From assembly GCA_964016885.1 (NCBI GenBank), contig OZ024743.1, positions 285,510,001 to 285,574,000 of the forward strand: a DNA stretch of 64,000 nucleotides, in the 5' to 3' direction. This document shows, in pieces, positions 2,532 to 45,661 of this stretch; the first letter of the stretch is position 1, and each line of letters begins with the position of its first letter. The notes under the pieces are model-generated. The model searched no databases. It saw only the letters and a list, made by a program, of their open reading frames with translations, and was not told where the DNA came from. Made by a program: the position numbers and the translations under genes. The DNA comes from Eledone cirrhosa (Eukaryota).

Positions 2532-3333
2532 TTAAGTGAAATATAATATTGGGATGTCAAGCTTACTAATGACATTCCTGCTATTCTCAAAAATACATGG
2601 GGGTAGGACAATAAACAACAAATATTTAAATATTCCACTAACTACTACAATGTAATGGCAACGGAAGCCCAAGCTTGAAAAAAAGGGAAAAAAACTCGTC
2701 ATATTTTGTAAGCTTCCCATAATCAAAGAAATCCATTAAAGGGTGATCAATTCTCTTCCTTTCGGAGGGTGAGGAAATAAAAATTTAGATGTTTGTAACT
2801 TTTCCAGGAACTTTAATAAAGTATGTGAAATATCAATCATTTGAATTCATAGCTGGATTGCAGGCTCCATTCCCCAACAGTTTACCAATTGTGCTACTAT
2901 ACTCTCCATTTGTGAAACAACAAAGTAAAGAATGAAAATATGTCAGCAAAGGGCCTTAAACTGCAAGGTGTAGTAACCAAATGGCTCCACCGCCACCACC
3001 ACCAACAACAAAACTAACAACAACACCACCACTTCCACCACCATCACCACCACTGCCACTGCTAACACCAAATCTCTTACTACCACCAAATTACACAATA
3101 CTGTCTAAAAAATGGAAAGACATTTTGTATAATATAGGTACACAGTGCACCTCAAAATGACAGGATGCTCATATTGAGAGCCTTTGATCATAGGTGTTCT
3201 TAATCATGGCTGACAAGGGACTAAATAACAACAACAACAAAGGGAAATACCTACAACTGGAATTTGAAATCATGTCACACACTTGTTTCACCAGGAAAAT
3301 TTCTTCTCTACATTGTTTACCAAAGCTTTATTA

Positions 3334-3570
3334 TTACATCGCTGTGATGCCATCTAGCTTTTTGCTCTCCCCTCCGTCTAACTCCACCAGTTTGAGCTGC
3401 AATGGGAAGCCAGCAGCAACCAGACCATGCTTAATGATCTCATTGAGAGCAGCATGGAATGGGAAGTAACTGGCAATTAGGTGGCATGTGAGCAAATGAA
3501 GGCTAAAAGTATCTATTATGGATCTGCAGCAGCATTTGTGTTGCTTGCAGATCCAGGAGTCAAGCCTCTC
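3334..3570 (-). pseudogene. Relic of an RLE-type (CRE/NeSL/R2-like) non-LTR retrotransposon: C-terminal zinc knuckle plus start of the restriction-like endonuclease
   Basis: Translation CCCRSIIDTFSLHLLTC...FPFHAALNEIIKHGLVAAGFPLQLKLVELDGGESKKLDGIT resembles the CxC..H.L.C..RH..LN..II...EP.GL...DGKRPDG.T motif of RLE LINEs (recognised by eye). Confidence 0.65.
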
Positions 3571-3909
3571 TCTATATATATTTAGAATATATATTTCAAC
3601 AGTCATATTCATATGTTTAATAAATATATATTTATTTAGTCTCCCTGTAAAGGTAAGTAATCAAACATGGATGGGCATTTAATGAGACATGAAACTAGCT
3701 GGTTTGATCATTGTTCCAAGCTGCCAATAGACCTATGTGACCCCTGGGACTACTTTTACAGCAAGAGTGAATATATGTTTGACATTTGAAATGTAGTTGC
3801 TCCAATGGAAATGATTATAAATAATAGTTGATCAATATAAATAATAGTTGATAAAATCGAGTAAATAACCGAAAAAAGAGAACAGCGGTAACTATTATTA
3901 TAGTTATTT

Positions 3910-4258
3910 GGAGGCACATGGCTTAGTGGTTAGAGCATTGGCCTTGCAATCGAAAGGTTGTGAGTTCAATTCTCAGACCGGGTGATGTGTTGTTTCCTTG
4001 AGCAAGACACTTTATTTCACATTGCTCCAGTTTACTCAGCTGTAGAAATGAGATGATAGAGACCGGGGTCCCTATCATTCCACTACAAAGTGGTCGTGTA
4101 GGTGCCATGGAAAAAAAAGCACCCAGCACTCACTGTAAATGAGGTTGGTGTTAGGAAGGGCATCCAGCTGTAGAAATCAAGCCAGAATCAGTTCCCGTCC
4201 CACCCTTGCAAGCAGGGAAAAGCGGATAAAATAATGATGATGATGATGATGATGATGA
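3910..4258 (+). mobile_element. tRNA-derived SINE (family 2) with RTE-derived 3' end
   Basis: A-box tggcttagtgg, B-box gagttcaattc, central tccttgagcaagacact, 3' region shared with the RTE 3'UTR (gttaggaagggcatccagctgtagaaa), (TGA)n tail. Confidence 0.85.
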
Positions 4259-4269
4259 TATATATATAT

Positions 4270-4537
4270 ATCATCATCATCATCATCATCGTTTAACGTC
4301 CATCTTCCACGCTTGCATGGGTTTGGACGGGAGTTTTCCCACTTGAGGCAAGATTGGTTGTCTTGCTCGTATAGGACTGACTGTCTGGCGGGTTTTCTAC
4401 GGCTGGATGCCCTTCCTAACACCAACTACGTTTACAGTGTGGACTGGGAGGTTTTTTACTGTGTTACCTACACGGCCACATTACAGCGTGGACTGCGTGT
4501 TTTTTTTTCGTGACACCTACACGACCTCATTTATTTC
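4270..4537 (-). mobile_element. RTE LINE 3' end fragment, tail-to-tail with the preceding SINE
   Basis: Reverse complement of 11640-11890; (CAT)n tail. Confidence 0.85.
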
Positions 4538-5400
4538 ATATATATATATATATATATTCATAAGCTACAGTATTTTGATATTCTATATTTTGATATTCTA
4601 TATTAATGTCTTATTTCAGAATTCGTTATCCTCCATATAATGAGAGAAACTACCGCAGACTACAGTGGGTGCTGAGGAAATCTCTCAGAAGAGGTACTCT
4701 CACTATTTTTTTTTTTTTTTTCATACTTAAATCTCTTAATGTTTTACTTGTTTTATGGTGGCAAACTGATAAAGATACTTAGAGCACCAAAATAAATGTA
4801 CACTTAATTTTTTCTACACCTAAGTTCACCTTGCTATCAGGAATAGGTAATAGGTTAACTGGAGATTAACTGGGTTAACTAATACAGGTTGGCATCATAC
4901 ATTACAGAGTTATCTCTCATGCACGTAACACTTTTGTTACCATATTTCTAATGAGATACACTGCTTATATATTTTCAATTAGTTTTGAAAATGAAAAAAA
5001 ATATTTGGAGGTATTCATAAAAACTAACTTTGTTAGTAAAGTGGTGTTAGGAACACCCCTTGTGGCATGTTATAGAATGTGCACCTCTTCTACTTTTTTC
5101 CTCTTTTTTTTTTTTAATATATGATTTTTCTTTTTTTGTATATGAACTGTGTTTAACAAAATATTCTGAGATAAAATTAATTTAAATATAACCCTTTCCT
5201 AGCTGGGAAAATAAACATTAAATGATGATGGTGAGCATTTTAAAATGGGTGGTTTTATACCATCAAACTTCAGGCCATTTTGGGCAGGTTGGTATCAAAG
5301 GGGTTAATGATATAAAGCAGTCATCCTTAAAAGCCTTTTGGAACTTAAAAGGCTTTTATATTTACAATTTGCATCCAAGATGAAGCGTAGTTCTGTATTT

Positions 5401-5590
5401 CACACACACACATATATAAGCATGCATGCATACACACACGTGCACACATATACACACATGCACACATGTACACACATGCACCCATATACACACATGCACA
5501 CATGTACACACATGCACCCATATACACACATGCACACATGTACACACATGCACCCATATACACACATGCACACATATACACACATGCAAA
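5401..5590. repeat. CA-rich minisatellite, 36-bp unit cacccatatacacacatgcacacatgtacacacatg
   Basis: About three exact units plus degenerate edges. Confidence 0.85.
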
Positions 5591-7360
5591 CATATTTGAC
5601 AGTAATAAAAAAAAATTCATCAAACTGATAGTTAAACCTTGAAATTCTGACACTCCACAACTACCAATCCCTTACTACGAGAGGACCTAAAATGTGTCAT
5701 TCCTTTCTTTCAAACCAACTAATAAAACAACTTATTTACAGCTGGGCCAAGAAATAGCTGACAAATTTGGTTCATACTTATTTTATTGACCTTAAAAAGA
5801 TGAAAAGTAAAGTTAACTCTGATGAGATTTAGATTAAAAACAAAGGAACCAGAAAAAGAGCTTTAATCTGTATTTGAATATTGGTTCTTTATGAAACTTA
5901 AATTTTAAAAAATCATATATAGATATATTACAAGAGAGCCTCTAACTGGTTGCTCAGTCTATTGGAATAGCAGCCAAATCTTTCAAATTACACTCTACCA
6001 TCTTAAAAAAGGAAGGACACATTGGATAATGCAGACTATGAAAAATAGTGAAACAAATTGAGCATACAAATCCTTAGAAACAGAAAAAGGTGACAATATT
6101 GTCTATGGGAATCAAACTGCCATATGTCAGATGGCTGACTTGTTAAAACCTGTATTGTACCAACTTAAAATGCACTAACATATTTTCAAAATTCAAATTT
6201 ACTTAGTACTTCATAAAAAGATTGATATATATTATGTTTGTCTTTTCACAGGACACTGATCATTAACACGAAAAGAAGTATCCGCACATGAAGATTTACA
6301 TCAAAAATGAAATTTAATTCTTCTACTTTTAATAGTTTATGTATTTATTTAATGATTTATTAATCTGTTTTACTTATTTTCTAATCCTTATTGAGAGATA
6401 ACTATAAGCTTTCTTCAACCAATAATTTTTTTGTTAAATAGTCCAAGTAAAAAAGAAAACGTTGACATTTTTTAGACTGAAACACAGAGATAAGGTAATG
6501 TTAGAGTGGTAAATGTTCAATTTAGATAGTTCTTTATTAATTATATGCAATAACATTTCTACCAACTTTCGGATAAAAAGCATGGCATAGCTTCAGTAAT
6601 GAATTCTTATCGAGTAGAAAAAAGATTTATCATATCCCTAGTATTAAACTCAGATTCAGAACATTTAAAAATGGCCATAAGAAATTTTTCTAGAAAATAG
6701 TTAAAATAATCAATGCTTAGGTGGATTAAGGTGCAATGTAAAATATTTTCTTTTCTTTTTTCAACAGCAATGGTTTATATTCAGGGTGTGCTGCTAACAC
6801 ATTGCTACACTATTCTTATTTATTCCATATTTTCTATATCTTTTTATAAGTATATTATTACACTGTTATTTCAGAGTTGTTGATAGTGAAAATAAAGGGT
6901 TGACTGTATGTGTCTTATCACTGAAATTATATTGTGCCTATGGCTAAGACACATAACTTTTGGTGGTCTAGATCACCTAGCTGGAAATATCTATTAGATC
7001 AAAATGCACCTTTCTTCACAAACAAATAACATAGGTATAACTTGAAGAGATACACTCTTAAATACAATAGGGTTAATCAACTGAAGAAACATTTAAGCAA
7101 GTGAATCTGTTTAATCAGACTTGCAGAGGAAATTTCTATATTAGTTAATTAATAGACTGTCCTTTCTATGTATAATATATTATTTACAAAACAAAGTTAT
7201 AATTTATCTTTCAATAATGTTCAGCACACCTTGTTCCATTACCTGTGGCCAATACTTTACAAAATAAGAATCAAACAAAATGACAAGAAAAGGGTAAAAT
7301 TTATATTTAACATCTTTCATCTCAAATGGTAGACATGATAACTTGCATAAAAGAATTTCT

Positions 7361-7411
7361 ATAATGAAAATTATTGTGTACAGTGCTCAGGTGCACTACA
7401 CCTCATCAAAG

Positions 7412-7416
<5 letters not shown>
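7361..7416 (-). mobile_element. Very short CR1 3' end fragment
   Basis: ataatgaaaattattgtgtacagtgctcaggtgcactaca is the reverse complement of the CR1 terminus. Confidence 0.75.
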
Positions 7417-7450
<34 letters not shown>

Positions 7451-7570
7451 TATATATTTAGCTAAGTACTCACTCAATAGTTGGGAAATTAGAGTGTATG
7501 TTTAGTTACATATAGGGTGTCTTACTAAACTATATGTATGTATAAGTATATATATATATATATATATATA

Positions 7571-7607
<37 letters not shown>

Positions 7608-7729
7608 TATTATATATATATAGGCAAGCGATTAATGATGATCAACTGGTACATTACTTAAAGTTTCACACATACATACTTTGCAGTGGTATGTAGCTCA
7701 GAATAATGTACTCATGGATCATTAACTGT

Positions 7730-8390
<661 letters not shown>

Positions 8391-9332
8391 CTGTTTGAAC
8401 AATACTTGTTTATACAGCCTTGTAGCCAACACAAAATAAACTGAGGTATATAATGAAGAATGAAGTAAAATAAAATGTTGTGAAATTTAAATACAGACTT
8501 TTTCTTAATGAAAAAAACCTTTCATACATAACAAAAAAGAATTTGTGTAAAAGATACAGTTGTAATAAATAAATAAATAAAACATAATTAATGTATCAGA
8601 CATCTGCTTAATGCCAAACTTCAACTAATATGTTCCCTGTTTCTCAGTTACACTTATAGTCCTATATATGTTTTACTCATAATAGTAAAACATATATAGG
8701 GTTATATATGGGTTTATAAGGGGTTTGTGCCAGAAGACATGACAATTTGAGAGAAAATATGGCCATATGTAGGCAAGATGTAGACCCCTCTGCCTGTCTG
8801 AGAGATCAGTAACCCCACTTTAGTATTGAGTTGATCTATGTAGACCCACCCAACTCTTTCTTGCAGGGAAAGCAGACATTAAATGATGATGATGACAGTG
8901 ACAACAACGACGATGATGATGATGGTGATGATGATGATGATGGTGATGGTGGTGGTGGTGGTGGTGGTGGTGGGGTGTAGGTGGGGCGTGTGACGATGAT
9001 GATGATGATGATATGTTTTAGTCATAGTCAACAATATTCTGTTATGCAATGACAAAGTTTTCTATGTTGATTATTATCAGATTTGTAGCTATGATTTTCT
9101 ATCTGTTTCTTTCATTACCTAGAATGAAAACTTTCTCCTAATTCACCAAATTATATAAGAGACAAATATCATATATTTTTCTATATACTGCATATAATGT
9201 GCATATAGAAGTAAAGTGAATGAGTGGATAAGATATACAACTACCTGTTCTTAGAACATGGGTTCAAATCCACTGCAGGAGTTTTGTTGTGTTTCTGCAC
9301 AAAGGCTGTTTATACTAAACTGCCACAGTTTG

Positions 9333-9476
9333 AAGGCACGTGGCTTAGTGGTTATTGAGTTGGATTCGCAATCGTGAGGTTGTGAGTTCAACTCTCGGAC
9401 TGGGTGATGTGTGGTGTCCTTGAGCAAGACACTTTATTACACGTTGTTCTTTCTGCCAAATGATGATGATGATGAT
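9333..9476 (+). mobile_element. SINE family 2, internally truncated copy
   Basis: gaaggcacgtggcttagtggtt...gagttcaactc...gtccttgagcaagacact, then (TGA)n. Confidence 0.75.
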
Positions 9477-9760
9477 ATACACAAAAGAAATAAGTCACCA
9501 AGTTCAACAGTTAATACATTATTTATTTGATCTATGCTCTGTGATTTAAATCTAAGATGGAAGTATACCAGCTGGATTTAATCATGAAATATCTCTTGTT
9601 ATTCTGGATACAAAATAAATCACTTTTGAGCTTTAAATAAATATCTGAACGCATTACTGTTGTTTTATCAACTTATATATATATATATAAGGGCGGTGCC
9701 CCAGCATGGCCTCAGCCGGATGGCTGAAACAGGTAAAAGAGTAAAAGAGTATATATATAT

Positions 9761-11878
9761 ATGAAGTGTCACTACGAAAGGCTACTAAATGAGGAGAATA
9801 AATGGGAGAAAGACAGTCTCCCCCACATCGACCCAATAGAGGGACCAGCAGTGTTAGTCGAAGGTAGTATAATAAGTAAGGCAATCAAAGATATGAAGAC
9901 GGGTAAGGCGGCTGGGCCTTCGGAAATAGTTGCTGAAATGCTGAAAGCTTCTGGAACGGTGGGACACACCATGGTCACCCGGATAGTAAACCAAGTCGTA
10001 CAGAATGGGGTTGTTCCGAAGGACTGGTGTAGCAGCATCATCATTAACTGCTACAAGGGTAAAGGAGATGCCCTAGATAGGAGTAACTATAGAGGCATTA
10101 AATTAATCGACCAAGTCATGAAGGTCACAGAAAAGGAATTGATCTAGATGAAATGCAGTTCGGGTTTGTGTCAGGTAAAAGTACCACAGACGCTCTTTTC
10201 ATTGTATGACAACTACAGGAGAAGTACCTAGCTAAAAGTAAACCCCTATACTTAGCTTTTGTCGACTTGGAGAAAGCCTTCGACAGAGTCCCCCGTTCCA
10301 TTATCTGGTGGGCTCTTAGAAAACTAGGTGTTGATGAATGGCTTGTGAAAGCTATACAAGCCATGTATAAAGAAACAGTCAGCAAGGTTAGAATTAACAA
10401 CGAATATAGTGAAGAGTTTAGCGTAAAAGTTGGTGTTCATCAGGGCTCCGTTCATAGCTCCCTACTATTTATTATTGCCCTTCAGGCTATAACAATGGAG
10501 TTCAAAACTGGCTGCCCATGGGAACTCCTATACACAGAGGATCTAATGCTCATAGCTGAATCAATGGCTGAACTAGAGAAGAAATTCCAAACATGGAAGC
10601 ATGGCCTAGAATCAAAAGGCCTTAAAATTAACCTGTTTAAGACTAAAGTTCTAGTTTGTAGGAAGGAAAATAGGGCACCGGTCCCATCTGGGAAATGGCC
10701 ATGTTCAGTGTGTAGGAAAGGAGTAGGTAGAAACTCCATTTTATGTCCCAAATGCAAAGCATGGGTGCATAAAAGATGTAGTGGGATCACAGGTAAGCTA
10801 ACTAAGAACATAGATTTTATATGTGGCCGGTGCTCTGGTGCAATAAGTAGCAGCAAGTGCCCACAGAATACTAGCAAGTGCCCACAGAATACTAGCTCAT
10901 TCCATTGCACAGATGGTTCTATAGAAATAGTGGACAGCTTCCGTTACCTGGGTGACAAAATCAGCAGTGGGGGAGGGTGCTCTGAAAGTACAGTAGCTAG
11001 AGTCAGAACTGGATGGAAAAAGTTCAGAGAACTTATACCACTATTAGCCGCTAAAGGGTTCTCCCTCAAAATGAAAGGCAGGCTGTATGATGCCTGCATA
11101 CGAACAGCAATGTTACATGGCAGTGAGACCTGGGCATTGTGTGCAGAGGATATATGCAGACTGGAGAGGAACGAAGCTTGCATGCTCCGCTGGATGTGTA
11201 ATAGTAATATACGTGAACGGCAAAGCATAAACGAACTAAGGGAAAAATTAGAAATAAGAGGGATCAGATGTTGTTTACTCGAGAGAAGACTATGTTGGTA
11301 TGGTGACGTGATGCGCATGAAAGACGACAGCTGTATAAAAAAGTGCAGGGCAATAAAAATAGACGGTAGCCACGGAGTAGGCAGACCCAGAAAAACCTGG
11401 GACGACTTGATAAATTCTGACCTCACACACTTACACCTCTCCAAGACAATGTCACTGGACCGAGATCTTTGGCGCTAGACAGTAATAGAGAAGACCCGCC
11501 TTACCTAAGTACAAAGTGAAACCTACTACAGTCAGTAGGCACCTCTAACAAAATACACCCCCGTCCCACTACCCCCACCCCATCCACACCACCCCTTTCA
11601 ATGTAAAGTTATGTTGGTACCACAACATCCAGCCCGAAACAAATGAGGTCGTGTAGGTGTCACGACAAAAAAACACACAGTCCACGCTGTAATGTGGCCG
11701 TGTAGGTAACACGGTAAAAACCTCCCAGTTCCACACTGTAAATGTGGTTGGTGTTAGGAAGGGCATCCAGCTGTAAAAAACCCGCCAGACAGTCCTATGC
11801 GAGCAAGACAACCACACTTGCCTCAAGTGGGAAAACTCCCGTCCAAACCCATGCAAGCGTGGAATATGGACGTTAAAC

Positions 11879-16704: not shown

Positions 16705-18262
16705 ATCATCATCACCGTTTTACGTCCGTTCTTCCACGCTAGCATAGGTTAGACGGGTTGTCCTGTTGTGGGCAGTGTCTGGTCGGCTGACCATGCCTTG
16801 CTCATACAGGAACTGATCTGGCTTGATTTCTACAGCTGGATGCCCTTCCTAACACCAACCTCATTTACAGTGAGTGCTGGGTGCTTTTTCGTGGCGCCTA
16901 CACGTCCACTTTACAGTGTGGGCTGGGTGCTTTTATGCCGTGGCACCTCCACGACCACCTTGCGGTGGGGGGAGTGGGCGCATATTGTTTATATGCTTCA
17001 GCATGTACCCATGGGAGGTCGGGTACCCTGTATTACTGCGTGATGCCAGAAGTCACGGTCGTGTGTCATTGTCTTTGAGAGGTGTAGTTGGGTAAGGTCG
17101 GCTTTTATCACCTCATCCCAAGTCATCTTGGGTCTCCCCACTCCGCGGTTGCCATCAACTTCTAGTGCTCTGCACCTTTTTTATGCAGCTGTCATCCTTC
17201 ATACGCATCACATGTCCATACCAGCGTAACCGCCTCTCCTGCACGCAGCATTTGATTCCTCTTATGCTCAGTCTCTCTCTCAATTCCTTTATGCTTTGTC
17301 GTTCACGTATATTACTGTTACACATCCATCGGAGCATGCAGGCTTCGTTTCTCTCTAATCTACGTAAGTCTTCCACCTTCAGCGCCCAGGTCTCACTACC
17401 ATGCAACATCGCTGTTCGGATACACGCATCATACAGTCTGCCTTTCATTCTGAGGGAGAAGCCTTTTGCAGCTAGCAGTGGTAGTAGTTCCCTAAACTTC
17501 TTCCATCCCGTTCTTACCCTAGTTATTGTACTTTCTGAGCACCCACCTCCGTTGCTAATTCGGTCACCTAGGTAGCAGAAGCTGTCTACTGTTTCTACAG
17601 GGCCCTCCCAGAGATTGGTGGTACTTGTTTCCTGTGGCTGTTTGCTTGCTGTTTCAGCACAGCTGCTGCATGTGAATCCTACATTCTTAATTAAGCTTCC
17701 TGAGATCCCGCTACATCTCTTGTGTACCCATTGTTTGCATTTGGGGCAGAGAATGGAGTTCCTACCTACACCTTTCCTACATACTGAGCAAGGCCATTTC
17801 CCTGAGGGGATCTGGGTTCTGTTTTCTCGCCTACTTACAAGGACCTTAGTCTTTGTCATGTTGACTTTGAGGCCCTTTCTCTCTAGTCCCTGCTTCCAGG
17901 TTTGGAATTTATTCTCTAGTTCTACCATAGATTCAGCTATGAGTGCGAGGTCATCAGCATACAGGAGTTCCCATGGGCATCCGGTCTTAAACTCCTCCGT
18001 TATTGCCTGCAGGACTATGATGAACAGGAGAGGGCTAAGAACAGAGCCCTGGTGGACCCCAACCTGTACGCTAAATTCCTCGCTATACTCATTGCTAATC
18101 CTAACTTTGCTGACTGCTCCCCTATACATGGCTTGTACCGCTTTCACAAGCCATTCATCTACTCCTAGTTTTCTAAGAGCCCACCAGATTACTGCACGTG
18201 GAACTCTGTCAAAGGCTTTCTCAAGGTCGACAAATGCCAAGTAGAGTGGCTTACTTTTAGAG
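16705..18262 (-). mobile_element. RTE-clade LINE, 5'-truncated, relatively young subfamily
   Basis: 361-aa ORF 17155-18240: AFVDLEKAFDRV, GVHQGSVLSP, YADD, PHD-type finger; its 3'UTR matches the SINE family 2 tail. Confidence 0.93.
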
Positions 18263-18398
18263 TATATTTTGTTATTTTTCCAATTTCTTTCAAAGTTATA
18301 TTGCCGTCTCCTGAGTTAGTAACATCAATAATCTGGCATTCATACCTAGTTCTGTTTCTTTCTAAGATGAAATATTTGGGGGGAAAAGCTTCTGTCAG

Positions 18399-22478: not shown

Positions 22479-22516
22479 TCTATCTATCTATCTCTCTATC
22501 TATCTATCTATCTATC
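22479..22516. repeat. (TATC)n microsatellite, 5' flank (target) of the Tx1 array
   Basis: tctatctatctatctctctatctatctatctatctatc immediately before copy 1. Confidence 0.95.
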
Positions 22517-22750
22517 GAATCTAGCTGTCGTCTGTTCTACAGTGTGGATGTCATTCACTTCGCACAGAAGTTTTGTTCAAATTTATTGAGGAAATTTTGT
22601 GAGTTCAAACTTAATTTTGATACAATTGTGTAGCTTGACCCTCCGTCTGAACTGTCAGGCGGTGGGTCAGCTCATCTTTACCCCTCCTAGAGGTGAAATA
22701 ACCTGTTTTAAAAAAAATTTTGTGTAAAAAATTTCAATCGTCTAACAGAA

Positions 22751-24628
22751 ATGTTAAACGCAGCGAACGAAAATAGTGGTGGGGGGACAGCGGTAAGAGT
22801 TGTAAGCTCGCACGCTTTAGTCCTCCCTTCCTTCCCAACTAACGTCATAGAGAAGGAAGGAAAAATGAAAATAAAAACGGACGAATCTGCGGAGGAAAAA
22901 TTAAATGACGAAAACAACGGAAAAAAAAAATTTGAAAAATTGCATGACAATACTAATAACACAAACAAAGACACAACAAACAAAAAAATAACAGTTGAAA
23001 ATAACATCATATCAGAAAACAAAGCAGACGACAAGATTTCATTTGCACAGAAAACAAAGAAATCTTTGACTTATATAGCGGAAAACATTTCAGATGTGGT
23101 ACGAAGGATCACGGACGCAAAACAATACATAAGTGAAGGTGAGAATGGTATTTTATTGGTAAAAATGCCTCAAGAATTCACGAAAGACATTGAAAGCCGA
23201 ACGGTCAAGTTTCGGACCATCAACAACAGTACAAAAAAACCTGAACAGCCTTCTCAAGCAGATATCAAAACAGTACTCGCAGAAGTACTGAATGAAACAA
23301 CTTTCATAAGAAAAGACAGACTGTATGGAAGCCTAGCAATTATCATGAAGAACGAATCGGCGGCAAAAAAATGTGCTTTGTCACCGATTCGTTCGAAAAA
23401 TTTCACCTTTTATCCATCTTATATGGGGAAAAAAACTCAACGCATATGGCTGGATGCAATGATGCCAGATGTGGACTACTGCTGGCTCATAGCTGGCTTC
23501 ATCGATCCAGTGAATGACAACGTGATTTCCATTGGGAAAACCACAGGCAATGCGTTCAGTGGAACAGGTATAGAGCTGGTAGTACAAATGAAGCCTGAAC
23601 GCATCGCCCAAATACCCGACAGAATCCTATTAGAGGACCACGGGTATATAAACATTAGCGTGGAGGGGAGAAGGCCGTCCTGCCATATCTGTGCAGGCAG
23701 AGGGCACCTGAAGGCCGCTTGTCCCCAACTCAACAAAAAGAAAACCCTGCTACCAACACCAGCTCCACCACCACCACCACAACAGATAAACAAACAACAA
23801 AACTCAGTCCCACCCAACCCGTCCCTCAGTAACACCACAACACCACCACAACACAAACAGTCACAACACATTACCCCAAAACAAAATACAGGCCCACCCA
23901 ACCTCTCACTCAATAAAACAACACAACCACCGCAGACACAACACACAACACAGTCTAACATAGTGACATCCATCTCCCCCACAAAGAAAACCAACACGGA
24001 AACATTACCAGCAAACATACCTCTTCCCTCCAACACTGAAGATAACCCAACGAATTCGGAGGAAGAAACGGAGTCCTTCAGACAGATTAAAAGGAAAAAA
24101 AGAAAACATGTGCAAAACACACAAGGACAAACAACCCCCACCCAAATCGCAACACAATCTAACAAAACAGAAAACACCCCTCCAGCAACAAACAAAACCA
24201 AACCTGCCCCTCCCCTCTTCGAAACACTCACACCATCGGAAAAAAAGACATTACACTATACTTACATCAACAGAAACAATAATAAATTAAATGAACTCAT
24301 ATACAATAATCCTTCGGTACAAACCGAAGGTGTAAACTTTGTTTCATCAGAAAACCACCCACATTTAAAACTAATAAAAATCCCAATGAACCTCTACCAA
24401 AAACTAAAAAAGGATTTTAAGGAGGACGTAGGACCACCCTCTGTCAAACCCATAAACCGCGTCCTACTAAAAAGCTTTCCCCCTCCCCTTCCCCTCCCCA
24501 ACACAACTCCAAACACCCCAACCCCACCACACACCGACGACCCCACACCACCACAAGACACCCCTTCACCCAACAACCCCGACCCCATGGAAGTCGTGCA
24601 ACCCGAACCCCGGGAAGCGGAAAGGTAG
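22751..24628 (+). CDS. ORF1p, gag-like nucleic-acid-binding protein (625 aa)
   Basis: CCHC knuckle CHICAGRGHLKAAC (CX2CX4HX4C), long T/P/Q/N-rich linker, basic patch IKRKKRK; conserved with family B ORF1. Confidence 0.92.
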   Translation: MLNAANENSGGGTAVRVVSSHALVLPSFPTNVIEKEGKMKIKTDESAEEKLNDENNGKKKFEKLHDNTNNTNKDTTNKKITVENNIISENKADDKISFAQKTKKSLTYIAENISDVVRRITDAKQYISEGENGILLVKMPQEFTKDIESRTVKFRTINNSTKKPEQPSQADIKTVLAEVLNETTFIRKDRLYGSLAIIMKNESAAKKCALSPIRSKNFTFYPSYMGKKTQRIWLDAMMPDVDYCWLIAGFIDPVNDNVISIGKTTGNAFSGTGIELVVQMKPERIAQIPDRILLEDHGYINISVEGRRPSCHICAGRGHLKAACPQLNKKKTLLPTPAPPPPPQQINKQQNSVPPNPSLSNTTTPPQHKQSQHITPKQNTGPPNLSLNKTTQPPQTQHTTQSNIVTSISPTKKTNTETLPANIPLPSNTEDNPTNSEEETESFRQIKRKKRKHVQNTQGQTTPTQIATQSNKTENTPPATNKTKPAPPLFETLTPSEKKTLHYTYINRNNNKLNELIYNNPSVQTEGVNFVSSENHPHLKLIKIPMNLYQKLKKDFKEDVGPPSVKPINRVLLKSFPPPLPLPNTTPNTPTPPHTDDPTPPQDTPSPNNPDPMEVVQPEPREAER

Positions 24629-24661
24629 GTCTCTACACTCTCCTTTGGCTCTGCCGCCCAC

Positions 24662-27600
24662 ATGGATGTGTTAAGAGTAGGATGTTTGAATGCACGTGGC
24701 CTGGGCTCAACTTGGAAGCAAGCAAAGCTTCTAAATGACCTCAGGTCATGTAGTATAAATGTAATGGTTATCTGTGAGACTCGAATCAGCGTCATGCGGC
24801 AGCTGGCCCCCACCTTCGATGACTTTGAGGTGCATGCATCTCTCTGTCAACCTGGAGGTGGGGGTGGGGTTGTCGTGCTGCTGCAAAAACACCTGGGTCT
24901 TGCCGTACAGGTTGTGCACTCGGACCCGGAGGGTCGTTTGTTGGTGCTAGACGTTGGCAGTAGTGAAAGTGCGGCCTTGAGACTGGTCGCCGTCTACTCC
25001 CCTTTCGGAGCTGAACGGCCCGACTTCTTCCAGCGTTTGGAGACTTTTCTGGGAACGTCGCGTTCCCTGCTTCTAGCGGGGGATTGGAATGACATCCTAG
25101 ATGCACGTTGGGACTATGCAGGAGCATGTCCTAATAGAGGGGGGTGTAACAGCCTCAAGGGGTTACTCGACCGTTTTAACTTGGTCGATAGATATCGACT
25201 AGATTTTCCAACTGTGCCTACCTGGACTTGGAGAAACCACAGTGGTCAATCTAGATCGTACTTAGATAGATTCTTAGTTAGAAGTAAGGATAGGGACATA
25301 TTAAGCTGTCCAGAAATGCGCACGGTTGGCTACACGGATCACAAATTAGTGACCTGCGTGGTCAATCTCGAGAAAACACATAGACAGGGTCCCGGTTACT
25401 GGAAACTTAATTTGTCTTTACCGGCAAAAGAGACTTACAGAAACCGGATTAGCAGATTAGTTAAGGAGAGGTTGACGGGTGCAATCGTCAACAACCGATG
25501 GTGGGCATCTCTCAAAAGAGAGATTAGAACAGAATCAATAAGTTATAGCAAGATGTTAGCTGCCAATAGGAATAGAAACGAGAAAGAATTAACAGGTAAA
25601 TTAGAAGAGGCAATCAAGAGCGAAGATGTGGCCAGAGTGCTGGCATCGAGGACGGCCTTGAACCAGTTTTTCGATGCAAAGCATGAAGGCTGCGTCATTC
25701 GAAGTAAAATACGTGCTCTAGGTAATGAGGGGGCCAAAGCCGTTGGATGGGCCCGCGTGACAGAAGCTAAAAGTGGAAATCGATCCACCATCCGGTCGTT
25801 GCAAGACGAAGATGGACGAGTGATCCGGGAGCCTAAGCAGATGTGCGAGGCCTTTCAAAAGCACTTTGCCCGATTGTTCGGGGGAGGCGAGGGTCCGGGC
25901 CGGGGCGTGGATTTCGGTCCATACCTCGACGGCCTGCCGCGTCTCTCGAGCAAAGAGGCGGAGTCCTGCGAGGGACCAATCTCGGCTGATGAGATCGGAG
26001 ATGCGCTGAGCCAATGCAGCAGACGCAAATCTCCGGGTCTCGATGGTATACCTTACGAACTTTATTTAGCAATGCCGGTCTTCTTCTCCGAACTCCTCGA
26101 AGCGGTCTACTGCAATTGGCAGCAGAACGGGAGAATTCCTTGTTCTGTAGCCAAGGGCGTAGTCACGCTGGTGAGGAAGGACGAGAACAAGGGGGATAGT
26201 ATAAATAATTTTCGGCCCATAACCCTGCTAAACACAGAGTTAAAGATTTTGGCCAAGGTGTTAGCAAAGAGGTTGGCGCTTGTCGTGGGTGGCCTGGTGG
26301 GAGATGCGCAGACATGTGCTATCCCATCCAGGTCCATTCACGATAACCTCCACCTCATGCGATACATCATAGAGAGGGTTGGCAACAAACCCGGCTTCGG
26401 TGGGGCCCTGATCAACTTGGATCAGTCTAAGGCCTTCGATAGGGTCGACCATGGTTACCTAGATGCGGTGCTAGCGGCGGCTGGGTTCGGTCCTGTTTTC
26501 AGAGGCTGGATCACTGCCCTACATAGCAAGCACATCTGTTCTAGGATCAAGGTGAACGGCTACCTTTCGAAGCCGTTCGAAATCACACGATCCATTCGAC
26601 AGGGGTGCCCTCTCTCCTCCCTTCTGTACGTATTGACTCTCGAGCCTTTACTGAGGAAGTTGGAGTTGTTGCAGGGTATCCCCCTGGAACCAGGATTGAG
26701 CAAAGCGGTGTCGGCCTACGCCGATGACGTAACAGTAATGGTATCAACCGACTCGGAGATCGAGGCGATCGGTACCTTACTGGAGGAGTACGAAAGGTTG
26801 TCAGGAGCGAAACTGAACCGGGAAAAATCCATCGGGCTGCAACTCGGAACGTGGAGAGGCAGACCGATGCCTCCCGATGGTGTCGTCGGACACTGGACGG
26901 AGGGCCCGGTAAAGTTGCTTGGGGTCTGGTTTGGACCGGACCTCCAGGTGGAAAAGAACTGGAACGAGGTTACGAACAAGGTGTTTGCACTAACCCAGAA
27001 ATGGGCCAAGTGTAAGCTGTCCCTAAAAGGCCGGGCGGAGGTGGCGAACATTTACATAGCGTCCGTCACTTACTACCGCCTGACTGTCGTGCCTTGCCCT
27101 AAGGAAACACTCACCACCATGGAACGCATGCTCTTCCAATTTCTTTGGAAGAAGCGTCCTCCTATGGTGAGAAGATCCATCTGCTGCCAACAACCTTCGA
27201 AAGGAGGGCTGGGGATGCCGTGGTTGATGATGCGTAGGCACGCATTAAGGCTACGGCACCTACAGGTATTCCTCACTGGTCAACCGGTGTGGGCTCCGTT
27301 CGTGAAACGAGCCTTTCCGAGACTCGTCTCACTCACCGAGCTACAGTCCTGGGTCAAGCAAAGATCCGGAAAACTGGGAGACTGGCACACTGAGTGTGCT
27401 CAGGCGCTCAGGGCTCTCTGGCAAGCGGGCCGGGCCATCGGTGGAGAATCCACCTCATCATTCTATAGAGGGCTGGTGGCTAGCAGGGGCGATGACACCC
27501 TTGGAGAGTCGCTGGACATGGAAGAAGACGAACTGGCCAGCCTGTTCGGTAGGACTTTCGGCCCAGGACCAATGGACAACTTCCAGAAGTCACTGGCCTG

Positions 27601-28099
27601 GCAGTGCTACCGAGGGGCTCTACCCGTTCGAGAGAGGCTCTACAGACACGGGCGCCCGGGCAGGGATCCCTCAAAAAAGATTTGCCCTAGATGCGTGCGT
27701 CACGAAGAAACCGTGGCGCACGCATTGGTGCAATGTCCGGGCGTGGCTGATCTGTGGGGCTACGCCGAACAACTGCTGTCGCGGGTGGCGCCGATTAAAT
27801 TGACAGCCGAGTCCGTGATGACAATCAAACCACCTCCCCTCTTCACAAAGGAAGCAAAGGCGGTTTTTCTGTGCGTAATAGCCATGTTGAAAGAGGTTGT
27901 TTGGTGGACACGATTGAAAGGTCTGAGGTCAGGCAACTTCCTCTCTGGCCATAGTCTGGTCTACTTCTTCCGATATCACTTCGGAAGAAGGATAAGAATG
28001 GAGAGAGAGGTGCTTGGCCACAGGCAGTTTTATGAAAGGTGGGTGATAGTGGCGAGAATGGCTCGTGTAAATGGGCCTTCTCTGTATACCATCCTGTAG
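24662..28099 (+). CDS. ORF2p: APE endonuclease, reverse transcriptase and C-terminal CCHC (1145 aa)
   Basis: APE motifs CLNARG, ICETR, GDWN, YLDRF, TDHK; GPGYWKLN (Tx1/L1 linker); RT NFRPITLL, DQSKAFDRV, RQGCPLS, YADD; KGGLG; CPRC..ETVAHALVQC. Confidence 0.97.
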   Translation: MDVLRVGCLNARGLGSTWKQAKLLNDLRSCSINVMVICETRISVMRQLAPTFDDFEVHASLCQPGGGGGVVVLLQKHLGLAVQVVHSDPEGRLLVLDVGSSESAALRLVAVYSPFGAERPDFFQRLETFLGTSRSLLLAGDWNDILDARWDYAGACPNRGGCNSLKGLLDRFNLVDRYRLDFPTVPTWTWRNHSGQSRSYLDRFLVRSKDRDILSCPEMRTVGYTDHKLVTCVVNLEKTHRQGPGYWKLNLSLPAKETYRNRISRLVKERLTGAIVNNRWWASLKREIRTESISYSKMLAANRNRNEKELTGKLEEAIKSEDVARVLASRTALNQFFDAKHEGCVIRSKIRALGNEGAKAVGWARVTEAKSGNRSTIRSLQDEDGRVIREPKQMCEAFQKHFARLFGGGEGPGRGVDFGPYLDGLPRLSSKEAESCEGPISADEIGDALSQCSRRKSPGLDGIPYELYLAMPVFFSELLEAVYCNWQQNGRIPCSVAKGVVTLVRKDENKGDSINNFRPITLLNTELKILAKVLAKRLALVVGGLVGDAQTCAIPSRSIHDNLHLMRYIIERVGNKPGFGGALINLDQSKAFDRVDHGYLDAVLAAAGFGPVFRGWITALHSKHICSRIKVNGYLSKPFEITRSIRQGCPLSSLLYVLTLEPLLRKLELLQGIPLEPGLSKAVSAYADDVTVMVSTDSEIEAIGTLLEEYERLSGAKLNREKSIGLQLGTWRGRPMPPDGVVGHWTEGPVKLLGVWFGPDLQVEKNWNEVTNKVFALTQKWAKCKLSLKGRAEVANIYIASVTYYRLTVVPCPKETLTTMERMLFQFLWKKRPPMVRRSICCQQPSKGGLGMPWLMMRRHALRLRHLQVFLTGQPVWAPFVKRAFPRLVSLTELQSWVKQRSGKLGDWHTECAQALRALWQAGRAIGGESTSSFYRGLVASRGDDTLGESLDMEEDELASLFGRTFGPGPMDNFQKSLAWQCYRGALPVRERLYRHGRPGRDPSKKICPRCVRHEETVAHALVQCPGVADLWGYAEQLLSRVAPIKLTAESVMTIKPPPLFTKEAKAVFLCVIAMLKEVVWWTRLKGLRSGNFLSGHSLVYFFRYHFGRRIRMEREVLGHRQFYERWVIVARMARVNGPSLYTIL

Positions 28100-28570
28100 G
28101 TAAAGAAGTAAAGGAGAGGGGAGCACCTTCTCCATGTGCTCCCCGGGCAAAGGATTGCACACTTTTTCGGGGGTGTGTGCAACCCCCATCACGTCCCCTC
28201 CCTTTTGAGGTTATTTTCGATTATTTTCATGTTACACCCTTTTTACTCGATTATATGTAAACTCCCCCTTTGTATTTGTCCCTTCTTTTTATGCCTTTAT
28301 GGTAAATAAAGAAATCTATCTATCTATCTATCTATCGAATCTAGCTGTCGTCTGTTCTACAGTGTGGATGTCATTCACTTCGCACAGAAGTTTTGTTCAA
28401 ATTTATTGAGGAAATTTTGTGAGTTCAAACTTAATTTTGATACAATTGTGTAGCTTGACCCTCCGTCTGAACTGTCAGGCGGTGGGTCAGCTCATCTTTA
28501 CCCCTCCTAGAGGTGAAATAACCTGTTTTAAAAAAAATTTTGTGTAAAAAATTTCAATCGTCTAACAGAA

Positions 28571-30448: not shown

Positions 30449-30481
30449 GTCTCTACACTCTCCTTTGGCTCTGCCGCCCAC

Positions 30482-33400
30482 ATGGATGTGTTAAGAGTAG
30501 GATGTTTGAATGCACGTGGCCTGGGCTCAACTTGGAAGCAAGCAAAGCTTCTAAATGACCTCAGGTCATGTAGTATAAATGTAATGGTTATCTGTGAGAC
30601 TCGAATCAGCGTCATGCGGCAGCTGGCCCCCACCTTCGATGACTTTGAGGTGCATGCATCTCTCTGTCAACCTGGAGGTGGGGGTGGGGTTGTCGTGCTG
30701 CTGCAAAAACACCTGGGTCTTGCCGTACAGGTTGTGCACTCGGACCCGGAGGGTCGTTTGTTGGTGCTAGACGTTGGCAGTAGTGAAAGTGCGGCCTTGA
30801 GACTGGTCGCCGTCTACTCCCCTTTCGGAGCTGAACGGCCCGACTTCTTCCAGCGTTTGGAGACTTTTCTGGGAACGTCGCGTTCCCTGCTTCTAGCGGG
30901 GGATTGGAATGACATCCTAGATGCACGTTGGGACTATGCAGGAGCATGTCCTAATAGAGGGGGGTGTAACAGCCTCAAGGGGTTACTCGACCGTTTTAAC
31001 TTGGTCGATAGATATCGACTAGATTTTCCAACTGTGCCTACCTGGACTTGGAGAAACCACAGTGGTCAATCTAGATCGTACTTAGATAGATTCTTAGTTA
31101 GAAGTAAGGATAGGGACATATTAAGCTGTCCAGAAATGCGCACGGTTGGCTACACGGATCACAAATTAGTGACCTGCGTGGTCAATCTCGAGAAAACACA
31201 TAGACAGGGTCCCGGTTACTGGAAACTTAATTTGTCTTTACCGGCAAAAGAGGCTTACAGAAACCGGATTAGCAGATTAGTTAAGGAGAGGTTGACGGGT
31301 GCAATCGTCAACAACCGATGGTGGGCATCTCTCAAAAGAGAGATTAGAACAGAATCAATAAGTTATAGCAAGATGTTAGCTGCCAATAGGAATAGAAACG
31401 AGAAAGAATTAACAGGTAAATTAGAAGAGGCAATCAAGAGCGAAGATGTGGCCAGAGTGCTGGCATCGAGGACGGCCTTGAACCAGTTTTTCGATGCAAA
31501 GCATGAAGGCTGCGTCATTCGAAGTAAAATACGTGCTCTAGGTAATGAGGGGGCCAAAGCCGTTGGATGGGCCCGCGTGACAGAAGCTAAAAGTGGAAAT
31601 CGATCCACCATCCGGTCGTTGCAAGACGAAGATGGACGAGTGATCCGGGAGCCTAAGCAGATGTGCGAGGCCTTTCAAAAGCACTTTGCCCGATTGTTCG
31701 GGGGAGGCGAGGGTCCGGGCCGGGGCGTGGATTTCGGTCCATACCTCGACGGCCTGCCACGTCTCTCGAACAAAGAGGCAGAGTCCTGCGAGGGACCAAT
31801 CTCGGCTGATGAGATCGGAGATGCGCTGAGCCAATGCAGCAGACGCAAATCTCCAGGTCTCGATGGTATACCTTACGAACTTTATTTAGCAATGCCGGTC
31901 TTCTTCTCCGAACTCCTCGAAGCGGTCTACTGCAATTGGCAGCAGAACGGGAGAATTCCTTGTTCTGTAGCCAAGGGCGTAGTCACGCTGGTGAGGAAGG
32001 ACGAGAACAAGGGGGATAGTATAAATAATTTTCGGCCCATAACCCTGCTAAACACAGAGTTAAAGATTTTGGCCAAGGTGTTAGCAAAGAGGTTGGCGCT
32101 TGTCGTGGGTGGCCTGGTGGGAGATGCGCAGACATGTGCTATCCCATCCAGGTCCATTCACGATAACCTCCACCTCATGCGATACATCATAGAGAGGGTT
32201 GGCAACAAACCCGGCTTCGGTGGGGCCCTGATCAACTTGGATCAGTCTAAGGCCTTCGATAGGGTCGACCATGGTTACCTGGATGCGGTGCTAGCAGCGG
32301 CTGGGTTCGGTCCTGTTTTCAGAGGCTGGATCACTGCCCTACATAGCAACCACATCTGTTCTAGGATCAAGGTGAACGGCTACCTTTCGAAGCCGTTCGA
32401 AATCACACGATCCATTCGACAGGGGTGCCCTCTCTCCTCCCTTCTGTACGTATTGACTCTCGAGCCTTTACTGAGGAAGTTGGAGTTGTTGCAGGGTATC
32501 CCCCTGGAACCAGGATTGAGCAAAGCGGTGTCGGCCTACGCCGATGACGTAACAGTAATGGTATCAACCGACTCGGAGATCGAGGCGATCGGTACCTTAC
32601 TGGAGGAGTACGAAAGGTTGTCAGGAGCGAAACTGAACCGGGAAAAATCCATCGGGCTGCAACTCGGAACGTGGAGAGGCAAACCGATGCCTCCTGACGG
32701 TGTCGTCGGACACTGGACGGAGGGCCCGGTAAAGTTGCTTGGGGTCTGGTTTGGACCGGACCTCCAGGTGGAAAAGAACTGGAACGAGGTTACGAACAAG
32801 GTGTTTGCACTAACCCAGAAATGGGCCAAGTGTAAGCTGTCCCTAAAAGGCCGGGCGGAGGTGGCGAACATTTACATAGCGTCCGTCACTTACTACCGCC
32901 TGACTGTCGTGCCTTGCCCTAAGGAAACACTCACCACCATGGAACGCATGCTCTTCCAATTTCTTTGGAAGAAGCGTCCTCCTATGGTGAGAAGATCCAT
33001 CTGCTGCCAACAACCTTCGAAAGGAGGGCTGGGGATGCCGTGGTTGATGATGCGTAGGCACGCATTAAGGCTACGGCACCTACAGGTATTCCTCACTGGT
33101 CAACCGGTGTGGGCTCCGTTCGTGAAACGAGCCTTTCCGAGACTCGTCTCACTCACCGAGCTACAGTCCTGGGTCAAGCAAAGATCCGGAAAACTGGGAG
33201 ACTGGCACACTGAGTGTGCTCAGGCGCTCAGGGCTCTCTGGCAAGCGGGCCGGGCCATCGGTGGAGAATCCACCTCATCATTCTATAGAGGGCTGGTGGC
33301 TAGCAGGGGCGATGACACCCTTGGAGAGTCGCTGGACATGGAAGAAGACGAACTGGCCAGCCTGTTCGGTAGGACTTTCGGCCCAGGACCAATGGACAAC

Positions 33401-33865
33401 TTCCAGAAGTCACTGGCCTGGCAGTGCTACCGAGGGGCTCTACCCGTTCGAGAGAGGCTCTACAGACACGGGCGCCCGGACAGGGATCCCTCAAAAAAGA
33501 TTTGCCCTAGATGCGTGCGTCACGAAGAAACCGTGGCGCACGCATTGGTGCAATGTCCTGGCGTGGCTGATCTGTGGGGCTACGCCGAACAACTGCTGTC
33601 GCGGGTGGCGCCGATTAAATTGACCGCCGAGTCCGTGATGACAATCAAACCGCCTCCCCTCTTCACAAAGGAAGCAAAGGCGGTTTTTCTGTGCGTAATA
33701 GCCATGTTGAAAGAGGTTGTTTGGTGGACACGATTGAAAGGTCTGAGGTCAGGCAACTTCCTCTCTGGCCATAGTCTGGTCTACTTCTTCCGATATCACT
33801 TCGGAAGAAGGATAAGAAGGAGAGAGAGGTGCTTGGCCACAGGCAGTTTTATGAAAGGTGGGTGA
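30482..33865 (+). CDS. ORF2p copy 2 (1127 aa; C-terminus frameshifted)
   Basis: All APE, RT and CCHC motifs intact; ataagaaTgga reads ataagaagga near 33818, replacing the last ~33 aa. Confidence 0.9.
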   Translation: MDVLRVGCLNARGLGSTWKQAKLLNDLRSCSINVMVICETRISVMRQLAPTFDDFEVHASLCQPGGGGGVVVLLQKHLGLAVQVVHSDPEGRLLVLDVGSSESAALRLVAVYSPFGAERPDFFQRLETFLGTSRSLLLAGDWNDILDARWDYAGACPNRGGCNSLKGLLDRFNLVDRYRLDFPTVPTWTWRNHSGQSRSYLDRFLVRSKDRDILSCPEMRTVGYTDHKLVTCVVNLEKTHRQGPGYWKLNLSLPAKEAYRNRISRLVKERLTGAIVNNRWWASLKREIRTESISYSKMLAANRNRNEKELTGKLEEAIKSEDVARVLASRTALNQFFDAKHEGCVIRSKIRALGNEGAKAVGWARVTEAKSGNRSTIRSLQDEDGRVIREPKQMCEAFQKHFARLFGGGEGPGRGVDFGPYLDGLPRLSNKEAESCEGPISADEIGDALSQCSRRKSPGLDGIPYELYLAMPVFFSELLEAVYCNWQQNGRIPCSVAKGVVTLVRKDENKGDSINNFRPITLLNTELKILAKVLAKRLALVVGGLVGDAQTCAIPSRSIHDNLHLMRYIIERVGNKPGFGGALINLDQSKAFDRVDHGYLDAVLAAAGFGPVFRGWITALHSNHICSRIKVNGYLSKPFEITRSIRQGCPLSSLLYVLTLEPLLRKLELLQGIPLEPGLSKAVSAYADDVTVMVSTDSEIEAIGTLLEEYERLSGAKLNREKSIGLQLGTWRGKPMPPDGVVGHWTEGPVKLLGVWFGPDLQVEKNWNEVTNKVFALTQKWAKCKLSLKGRAEVANIYIASVTYYRLTVVPCPKETLTTMERMLFQFLWKKRPPMVRRSICCQQPSKGGLGMPWLMMRRHALRLRHLQVFLTGQPVWAPFVKRAFPRLVSLTELQSWVKQRSGKLGDWHTECAQALRALWQAGRAIGGESTSSFYRGLVASRGDDTLGESLDMEEDELASLFGRTFGPGPMDNFQKSLAWQCYRGALPVRERLYRHGRPDRDPSKKICPRCVRHEETVAHALVQCPGVADLWGYAEQLLSRVAPIKLTAESVMTIKPPPLFTKEAKAVFLCVIAMLKEVVWWTRLKGLRSGNFLSGHSLVYFFRYHFGRRIRRRERCLATGSFMKGG

Positions 33866-34155: not shown

Positions 34156-34236
34156 TACACCCTTTTTACTCGATTATATGTAAACTCCCCCTTTGTATTT
34201 GTCCCTTCTTTTTATGCCTTTATGGTAAATAAAGAA

Positions 34237-34237
<1 letters not shown>
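34156..34237 (+). mobile_element. 82-bp 5'-truncated Tx1 family A insertion (3' terminus only)
   Basis: tacaccctttttactcg...ggtaaataaagaaa flanked by (TATC)n on both sides. Confidence 0.9.
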
Positions 34238-34313
<76 letters not shown>

Positions 34314-45423: not shown

Positions 45424-45661
45424 GTTGAGGAAAAGGAGGAGGAGAGGAAAGGAGTACAAACTCTTCGTACTCCTGGAGATGAGGGTTACACATTTTTTCG
45501 GAGGTATGTGTTACCCATATGAACTGTCTCCCCCTATTGGAGAAAATCGACTAATTTTTAAATTGCATTTGTGATAATATTTTACACGTTTTTATTGTAT
45601 GTAAACTTCCCCCTTTGTATTTCTCCCCTTCTTTTGTGCCCCTGTGGCTAATAAAGAAACA

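What the first reader, a model, noticed from the sequence alone, without database searches (positions are those of the whole stretch)
28118..28185. Two 3'UTR stem-loops conserved by compensatory changes between families A and B
Seen: family A GGGGAGCAC-(9 nt)-GTGCTCCCC (28118-28144) versus family B AGGAGTAC-(9 nt)-GTACTCCT (45450-45474). Both arms change in step while the loop keeps its length but not its sequence. Second hairpin: A GGATTGCACAC-tttttcgggggt-GTGTGCAACCC (28152-28185) versus B GGGTTACACAT-tttttcggaggt-ATGTGTTACCC (45483-45516), again compensatory, with a conserved TTCG core. Inference: a cis RNA signal for ORF2p recognition (stringent-type 3' end, unlike poly(A)-dependent mammalian L1) or for 3' processing.
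Basis: partly seen in the sequence, partly recalled or inferred. Interest (0 to 1): 0.72.

Follow-up and report, generated by a model that had tools for sequence, protein, structure and literature searches.

The report
Conserved hairpins in a LINE tail
Ten related families of an L1-like jumping gene in this animal genome keep the same two hairpins in their tail through paired base changes, and these likely help the element's own enzyme pick out its RNA, a principle already known from other jumping genes.

Summary
Both hairpins are at the stated coordinates, in the 3'UTR of an L1/Tx1-type LINE. They are conserved, not chance. Across ten families in this genome, 178 of 190 stem cells pair, against 120±13 in a tree-aware null (0 of 5000 runs reach it). 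Nine of 19 pairs change on both sides (4 of 5000). Private mutations in inserted copies hit stems at the background rate and mostly break them, so selection acts on the transposing lineage.

Two details in the finding fail. One 'compensatory' change in hairpin 2 is private to this B copy (family: G·U in 42 of 50). The TTCG core is absent from three families; the conserved loop motif is GGGG.

Copies end in (TCTA)n or (ATT)n, not poly(A) (0 of 91), and insert into those repeats. The likeliest role is a cis signal that lets ORF2p select and position its RNA (about 0.5, untested). No partner SINE was found. This is a known kind of signal (ZfL2, SART1, monocot L1). The scan noted similar Tx1 tail hairpins earlier in other genomes.

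The parts
22517..28314 (+). Full-length family A LINE, copy 1 of three in tandem (the others start near 28337 and 34323)
   Evidence: Self-BLAST 98.5-99.7% identity between copies; TCTA repeat at 22479-22516
22712..24628 (+). ORF1 frame (638 aa stop to stop) with a C-x2-C-x4-H-x4-C knuckle
   Evidence: no Pfam hit
24629..28099 (+). ORF2 frame (1156 aa stop to stop): AP endonuclease, reverse transcriptase, C-terminal CCHC
   Evidence: Pfam Exo_endo_phos, RVT_1, and zf-RVT just under its cutoff; best PDB match human L1 ORF2p, E 3.5e-51
28060..28077 (+). Possible 5-bp hairpin in the last ORF2 codons (HP0), weak
   Evidence: Arms kept in the nine families matched by the motif; C, I and K2 not matched; coding constraint not excluded
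28118..28144 (+). Hairpin 1, family A (8-9 bp stem, 9-nt variable loop)
   Evidence: 76/80 family cells paired, 14 of 5000 null runs reach this
28152..28185 (+). Hairpin 2, family A (11 bp with one A·C; loop with conserved GGGG)
   Evidence: 102/110 family cells paired, 0 of 5000 null runs
28197..28210 (+).
   Evidence: RNAalifold consensus; T-A in A, D, F, G and C-G in the other six
28293..28310 (+). Terminal 3-bp hairpin (5-nt loop) followed by AATAAA
   Evidence: RNAalifold on 14 representatives; G-C changed to A-U in K; 26,161 exact matches to a 22-nt pattern of this end, 0 for the reversed control
28315..28336 (+). (TCTA)n tail, which is also the landing site of the next copy
45450..45474 (+). 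Hairpin 1, family B copy
45483..45516 (+). Hairpin 2, family B copy; A at 45488 and the loop GGAGG are not the family state

Best explanation
Two hairpins in the 3'UTR of an L1/Tx1-type LINE are conserved across ten families of this genome by pair-preserving and compensatory changes, and they likely act as part of an RNA cis signal by which the element's ORF2 protein selects and positions its own template. Shown: the stems, their conservation, neutral decay after insertion, tails of (TCTA)n or (ATT)n without poly(A), and preferential landing in the same repeats. Inferred: (1) the structure forms in the sense RNA; (2) ORF2p, possibly with ORF1p, binds the structured UTR of hairpins 1-3 plus the terminal hairpin, reading stem shape and perhaps the GGGG loop; (3) this holds the enzyme so that the nicked target repeat anneals to the few repeat units after AAUAAAGAAA and cDNA starts there rather than on a poly(A) tail.
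For: RNAalifold on an unguided MAFFT alignment of 11 representatives recovers hairpins 1, 2 and 3. Pair counts: 93.1% paired against 84.9% shuffled (0/500) and 31-54% with slid partners. Tree-aware null on an ORF2 tree: 178/190 cells against 119.8±12.6 (0/5000); 9 of 19 pairs with two-sided change against 3.7 (4/5000). On branches, about 28.5 single changes keep a pair and 8.2 break one. Among private copy mutations 41 keep and 93 break, and the stem rate equals the non-stem rate (0.0101 against 0.0105). Own-family arms pair better than cross-family arms (3/10000 for each hairpin). Family L, found after the structure was fixed, folds all three hairpins at the same places by its majority string, and hairpins 1 and 2 in its representative copy. 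G·U cells outnumber A·C cells 18 to 8 on the sense strand. No poly(A) in 0/91 ends; 59 of 86 truncated A-I copies have a TCTA-type 5' flank against 30 of 20000 background 20-mers. Precedent: ZfL2 ORF2 binds its cognate 3' stem-loop (PMC4176376, abstract); SART1Bm starts cDNA at target-like repeats downstream of a 3'UTR stem-loop (PMC7265360, passages); R2Bm binding depends on two stem-loops (PMC11194090, abstract).
Against: There is no functional or RNA data here. No tail-sharing SINE was seen among 91 ends, and that is the usual genomic sign of stringency; the pattern used misses families A, D, F, G, J and L. Crocodilian Tx1-Mar elements are thought to mobilise poly(A)-ended SINEU with no known matching tail (PMC4494074, passages). 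The hairpins are 130-200 nt from the tail, whereas the L2-type loop is at the very end (PMC5135761, passages). Two-sided change is not significant for hairpin 1 alone (301/5000) and is marginal for hairpin 2 alone (127/5000). The representative copies of G, I and K fold differently. Alignment folds of K and M prefer a rival hairpin across the linker, those of the old families J and L recover little, and the J majority string misses hairpin 2. Shuffle z-scores favour the antisense strand in 8 of 13 representatives, although raw energies favour sense in 9 of 13, so strand is not settled. The null starts from a paired root and uses a structure drawn from the same sequences.
Confidence: 0.5

Rival explanations
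1. The hairpins are selected RNA structures, but they serve the transcript's life cycle: stability, 3' cleavage at the AAUAAA, export, escape from decay after the ORF2 stop, or a host or ORF1p binding site. Template choice is by cis preference and the repeat tail.
For: They start 19 nt after the ORF2 stop and lie upstream of a U-rich tract and an AATAAA that is invariant in 14 representatives. No SINE partner was seen. Covariation shows structure only, not which protein reads it. Human L1 ORF2p engages a stem-loop without much sequence specificity, and unpairing it lowers TPRT only modestly (PMC10830416, passages).
Against: Insertions carry no poly(A) (0/91), so something must place the start of cDNA inside the RNA or at a non-A end. 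In LINEs where this was tested, 3'UTR stem-loops proved to be RT signals (PMC4176376 abstract; PMC5135761 passages).
Confidence: 0.3
2. The 3' end is stringent, but the ORF2p signal is the terminal part (hairpin 3 and/or the small hairpin before AAUAAA). Hairpins 1-2 are accessory.
For: Hairpin 3 and the terminal hairpin form the consensus structure of all 14 representatives, including K and L. Hairpins 1-2 are remodelled in K and M. Stringent signals elsewhere sit in the last 50-80 nt (PMC3472496, first third read).
Against: The terminal stem has only 3 bp and one compensatory change. Hairpins 1-2 carry most of the covariation.
Confidence: 0.14
3. The symmetry is kept by a mutational process (template-switch correction of quasi-palindromes) or by a DNA-level role, not by selection on RNA.
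For: Watson-Crick stems read alike on both strands; antisense z-scores are as strong or stronger in 8 of 13 representatives.
Against: Inserted copies show no correction: 93 of 134 private stem changes break pairs. 18 G·U cells persist, and fixed mismatches remain in A and B. A GGGG loop motif and the 9-nt loop-1 length are also kept.
Confidence: 0.06

Closest known systems
Stringent L1-clade 3' hairpin of monocot LINE1-1_ZM and ZmSINE2/3 (PMC3472496, first third of the text read)
   Same: L1-clade element; conserved 3' hairpin with compensatory stem changes and conserved loop bases; function inferred from conservation.
   Different: That case is one hairpin in the last ~50 nt, shared with SINEs. 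Here there are four hairpins over ~200 nt in an animal element with microsatellite tails, and no SINE partner was found.
ZfL2-1/ZfL2-2 and UnaL2 3' stem-loops, L2 clade (PMC4176376 abstract; PMC3747384 passages)
   Same: Stem conserved in shape, loop family-specific, tail of short repeats rather than poly(A).
   Different: Different clade; a single terminal stem-loop with proven ORF2 binding. Binding is untested here.
SART1Bm (R1 clade) and R2Bm 3'UTR structures (PMC7265360 passages; PMC11194090 abstract)
   Same: More than one stem-loop inside the UTR, away from the 3' end. SART1Bm targets a short repeat and can start cDNA at target-like bases downstream of a stem-loop.
   Different: Other clades; SART1Bm ends in poly(A); no sequence likeness was tested.
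Microsatellite-targeting Tx1 elements Kibi, Koshi and crocodilian Tx1 (PMC4494074 passages)
   Same: L1-like elements that insert into simple repeats.
   Different: Their targets are (TC)n, (TTC)n and (TTCC)n/(TTTC)n, not (TCTA)n or (ATT)n. The passages read describe no 3'UTR structure.

Membership tests
L1 superclade LINE (L1/Tx1) | ORF2 with N-terminal AP endonuclease and reverse transcriptase | tested here: met
   Pfam PF03372 and PF00078 above cutoff; human L1 ORF2p E 3.5e-51 against R2 6e-21
L1 superclade LINE (L1/Tx1) | Two ORFs; C-terminal CCHC motif in ORF2 (feature recalled) | tested here: met
   (C-x2-C-x8-H-x4-C in the translation); zf-RVT 26.9 bits against a cutoff of 27.5
Tx1 clade | RT phylogeny groups with named Tx1 elements | not testable with these tools
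   No named Tx1 reference set was available; close homologues are unnamed and one distant hit (26% identity) carries a 'Transposon TX1' label
Tx1 clade | Target-sequence preference (PMC4494074) | tested here: met
   TCTA-type 5' flank in 59/86 truncated A-I copies, ATT-type in 10/23 J-M copies; background 30 and 87 of 20000. The sample is enriched for nested copies.
Stringent-type LINE 3' signal | Conserved 3'UTR stem-loop with compensatory changes | tested here: met
Stringent-type LINE 3' signal | A SINE shares the 3' tail | tested here: inconclusive
   None among 91 ends of 26,161 pattern matches; the pattern misses six families
Stringent-type LINE 3' signal | [quoted passage not shown] | not testable with these tools
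   Needs an assay
Known Rfam family (for example a ribozyme) | Match to a covariance model | tested here: not met
   No match at E <= 1 over any of the 3'UTR hairpins; 4 sub-threshold hits elsewhere in 22000-46200

The most novel reading that the evidence does not exclude
An animal Tx1-type lineage uses a four-hairpin 3'UTR module as a family-specific ORF2p docking signal that aims reverse transcription at a microsatellite tail annealed to the same microsatellite in the target. This would be stringent recognition inside the L1 superclade in animals, with about 13 coexisting families as a natural swap panel for asking whether mammalian poly(A) recognition is a derived loss.
Probability: 0.3. 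Interest if true: 0.6.

Novelty: new member of a known kind. Interest (0 to 1): 0.36.

Why it matters
Whether the L1 clade began with strict recognition of its own 3' RNA and later relaxed to poly(A) is still argued (PMC3472496, PMC3747384), and the L1-clade examples cited there are plants and algae. A young, abundant animal family with open ORFs (top 40 matches to the A 3' end at about 100% identity) and a dozen sister families with covarying tails makes the question testable by UTR and ORF2 swaps. The principle itself is established, so the gain is a good test system rather than a new mechanism.

Tried and rejected
Rfam gave nothing over the hairpins. Whole-UTR folding energy is not significant.

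Tertiary pairings were tested by own-family against cross-family duplex energy for eight segment pairs, including loop1-loop2 kissing, a loop2-downstream pseudoknot and an enclosing helix. None was supported (2533 to 9945 of 10000 permutations as good). The invariant GGGG cannot show covariation, so a kissing loop is unsupported rather than excluded.

No pile-up of 5' truncations at the hairpins was seen: 0-3 per 20-nt bin against 3-13 upstream, among 173 points. The sample is biased to complete UTRs and the downstream rows include family mis-assignments.

A repeated short-match class looked like a SINE but proved to be another LINE family (M): all 9 have ORF2 upstream and ARAGORN found no tRNA in them. 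One copy (L318) joins ORF2 directly to the last ~50 nt; the junction was in 1 of 391 loci, so it is uninformative.

Sequencing runs: no RNA holder listed; contigs of four runs added little beyond hints of further families. The ESM Atlas gave only unnamed APE-RT clusters.

Literature searches listed no paper whose title or abstract start describes 3'UTR structure in Tx1 elements; one search was too loose to count for much. Repbase, Kojima and Fujiwara 2004 and all supplements were not seen, and supplements of PMC4494074 or PMC13282606 could hold these families. The host was not determined; an Octopus vulgaris annotation lists 13 recently active L1-Tx1 families (PMC13282606, passages), a lead only.

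Full report
Context. The window holds three tandem, near-identical copies of a two-ORF LINE (family A, 98.5-99.7% alike) and one broken copy of a sister family B (about 79% over ORF2). ORF2 has endonuclease, reverse transcriptase and a C-terminal CCHC motif, and its best solved relative is human L1 ORF2p. Each copy ends in AATAAAGAAA and (TCTA)n, and the next copy begins in that repeat. The hairpins start 19 nt after the ORF2 stop.

Observation. Two perfect stems of 8 bp or more occur in 1 of 1000 shuffles of the A UTR, though the energy of the whole UTR is unremarkable.

More families. Searches of the 3.0 Gb own genome and mining of the flanks gave 403 profile hits, 383 after a first de-duplication and 333 near full length. 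A second pass left A 37, B 50, C 30, D 34, E 45, F 30, G 6, H 33, I 6, J 28, K 31 and K2 1. L and M were found later. Most copies were top hits to a query, so within-family samples lean to typical copies, and a few loci may be counted twice. Family representatives are 56-88% identical over the region.

What the family data do to the A/B comparison. Three of 19 pairs differ by a true two-sided change. The fourth claimed change rests on A45488, seen in 2 of 50 B copies; the family has G·U. Hairpin 2 has a fixed A·C in A and a fixed U·U in B, and its commonest loop is the same in both. TTCG is missing from E, H and J, while GGGG is in most copies of all ten families. Loop 1 keeps 9 nt but not its sequence in A-J.

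Covariation. An unguided alignment of 11 real copies folds into hairpins 1, 2 and a third short hairpin; 11 of 23 predicted pairs have a two-sided change. The named structure beats letter shuffles and slid registers, but that control ignores kinship. I therefore built an ORF2 tree (the C-I and B-C-I nodes have only 51 and 68 support) and reshuffled each branch's substitutions among the stem columns of ten families. Observed pairing was 178 of 190 cells against 119.8±12.6 (0 of 5000), and two-sided pairs were 9 of 19 against 3.7 (4 of 5000). Each hairpin alone is significant for pairing (14 and 0 of 5000) and weaker for two-sided change (301 and 127 of 5000). K, K2, L and M were not in this test. 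The null assumes a paired root and the structure came from these sequences.

An internal control. Private mutations in inserted copies hit stems and non-stems equally (134 of 13291 against 259 of 24723 sites), and 93 of 134 break the pair. Lineage-fixed single changes keep it about 28 times to 8. So the constraint acts on elements that transpose, not on genomic copies.

Held-out families and limits. Family L folds hairpins 1-3 at the same places by its majority string, and hairpins 1-2 in its representative copy. In K and M hairpin 1 shrinks to a 4-nt loop, hairpin 2 lengthens, and alignment folds prefer a rival hairpin across the linker. The G, I and K representatives fold otherwise, alignment folds of the decayed J and L copies recover little, and the J majority string misses hairpin 2. 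Strand is favoured but not settled: 18 G·U against 8 A·C cells on the sense strand, lower energy on sense in 9 of 13, but more negative z on antisense in 8 of 13.

The rest of the tail. Hairpin 3 and a 3-bp hairpin directly before AATAAA form the consensus of 14 representatives, each with one compensatory pair. A 22-nt pattern of that end has 26,161 exact matches. Of the first 100 listed places I fetched 96, giving 91 distinct ends: 50 TCTA-type tails, 34 ATT-type, 7 other and none poly(A). Of these, 73 run through the hairpin region and 18 stop short, with no shared foreign head. A-I end mostly in TCTA and J, K, L, M in ATT, and truncated copies tend to have the matching repeat on their 5' side.

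Mechanism. Shown: conserved stems, a conserved GGGG, selection on the mobile lineage, repeat tails and repeat targets. Inferred: an RNA with AAUAAA should be polyadenylated (general knowledge), yet insertions lack poly(A), so cDNA probably starts at repeat units annealed to the nicked target, and a structured UTR bound by ORF2p would set that register. This works like SART1Bm (PMC7265360, passages), ZfL2 (PMC4176376, abstract) and R2Bm (PMC11194090, abstract). Against: no SINE partner; crocodilian Tx1 seem to move SINEs with no known matching tail (PMC4494074, passages); human ORF2p uses stems loosely (PMC10830416, passages). I put 0.5 on hairpins 1-2 being part of the ORF2p signal, 0.3 on another RNA role, 0.14 on a signal confined to the terminal part, and 0.06 on a non-RNA cause.

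Comparison and novelty. A 3' hairpin with compensatory changes in an L1-clade lineage is in print for monocots (PMC3472496, first third read; PMC3747384, passages). Vertebrate L1 3'UTRs are described as repeat-rich with unclear function (PMC5381506, passages), and position-conserved stem-loops are reported in human L1 (PMC5135761, passages). My searches listed no description for Tx1-type elements, but Repbase and supplements were not seen. Tx1 membership rests on architecture and target preference, not on a tree with named references. Two earlier notes of this scan report similar Tx1/L1 tail hairpins in other genomes; I did not check them, and a look-up by sequence found none. Verdict: real, well supported as structure, function inferred; a new member of a known kind; interest 0.36.

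Noticed in passing
window 28060-28077; L347 and other family M loci: A 5-bp hairpin in the last ORF2 codons is kept in most families. In most M copies both arms differ, with changed amino acids, yet still pair in a register shifted by one.
   Followed up: partly
family 3' ends, e.g. L248:1501-1803, L238:1501-1814: Tail and target differ along the tree: (TCTA)n in families A-I, (ATT)n in J, K, L, M. A natural pair for studying endonuclease specificity.
   Followed up: partly
window 34157-34261: A 104-nt 5'-truncated A copy sits in the TCTA tail of copy 2 and looks like a tandem duplication.
   Followed up: partly
window 30449-33865: ORF2 of the second A copy is 1138 aa against 1156 aa in copies 1 and 3, and the B copy is broken into several frames.
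   Followed up: no
window 10210-11478, 17155-18315, 55486-56763: Three fragments of another LINE with a PHD finger after the RT domain.
   Followed up: no
L292 and L298 (G000 C27 near 17.018 Mb; C1478): The ORF2-end segment of family L is repeated as a tandem array with a period of about 195 bp on two contigs.
   Followed up: no
L023: Two family A 3' ends lie tail to tail in opposite orientation around a short TCTA/TAGA stretch.
   Followed up: no
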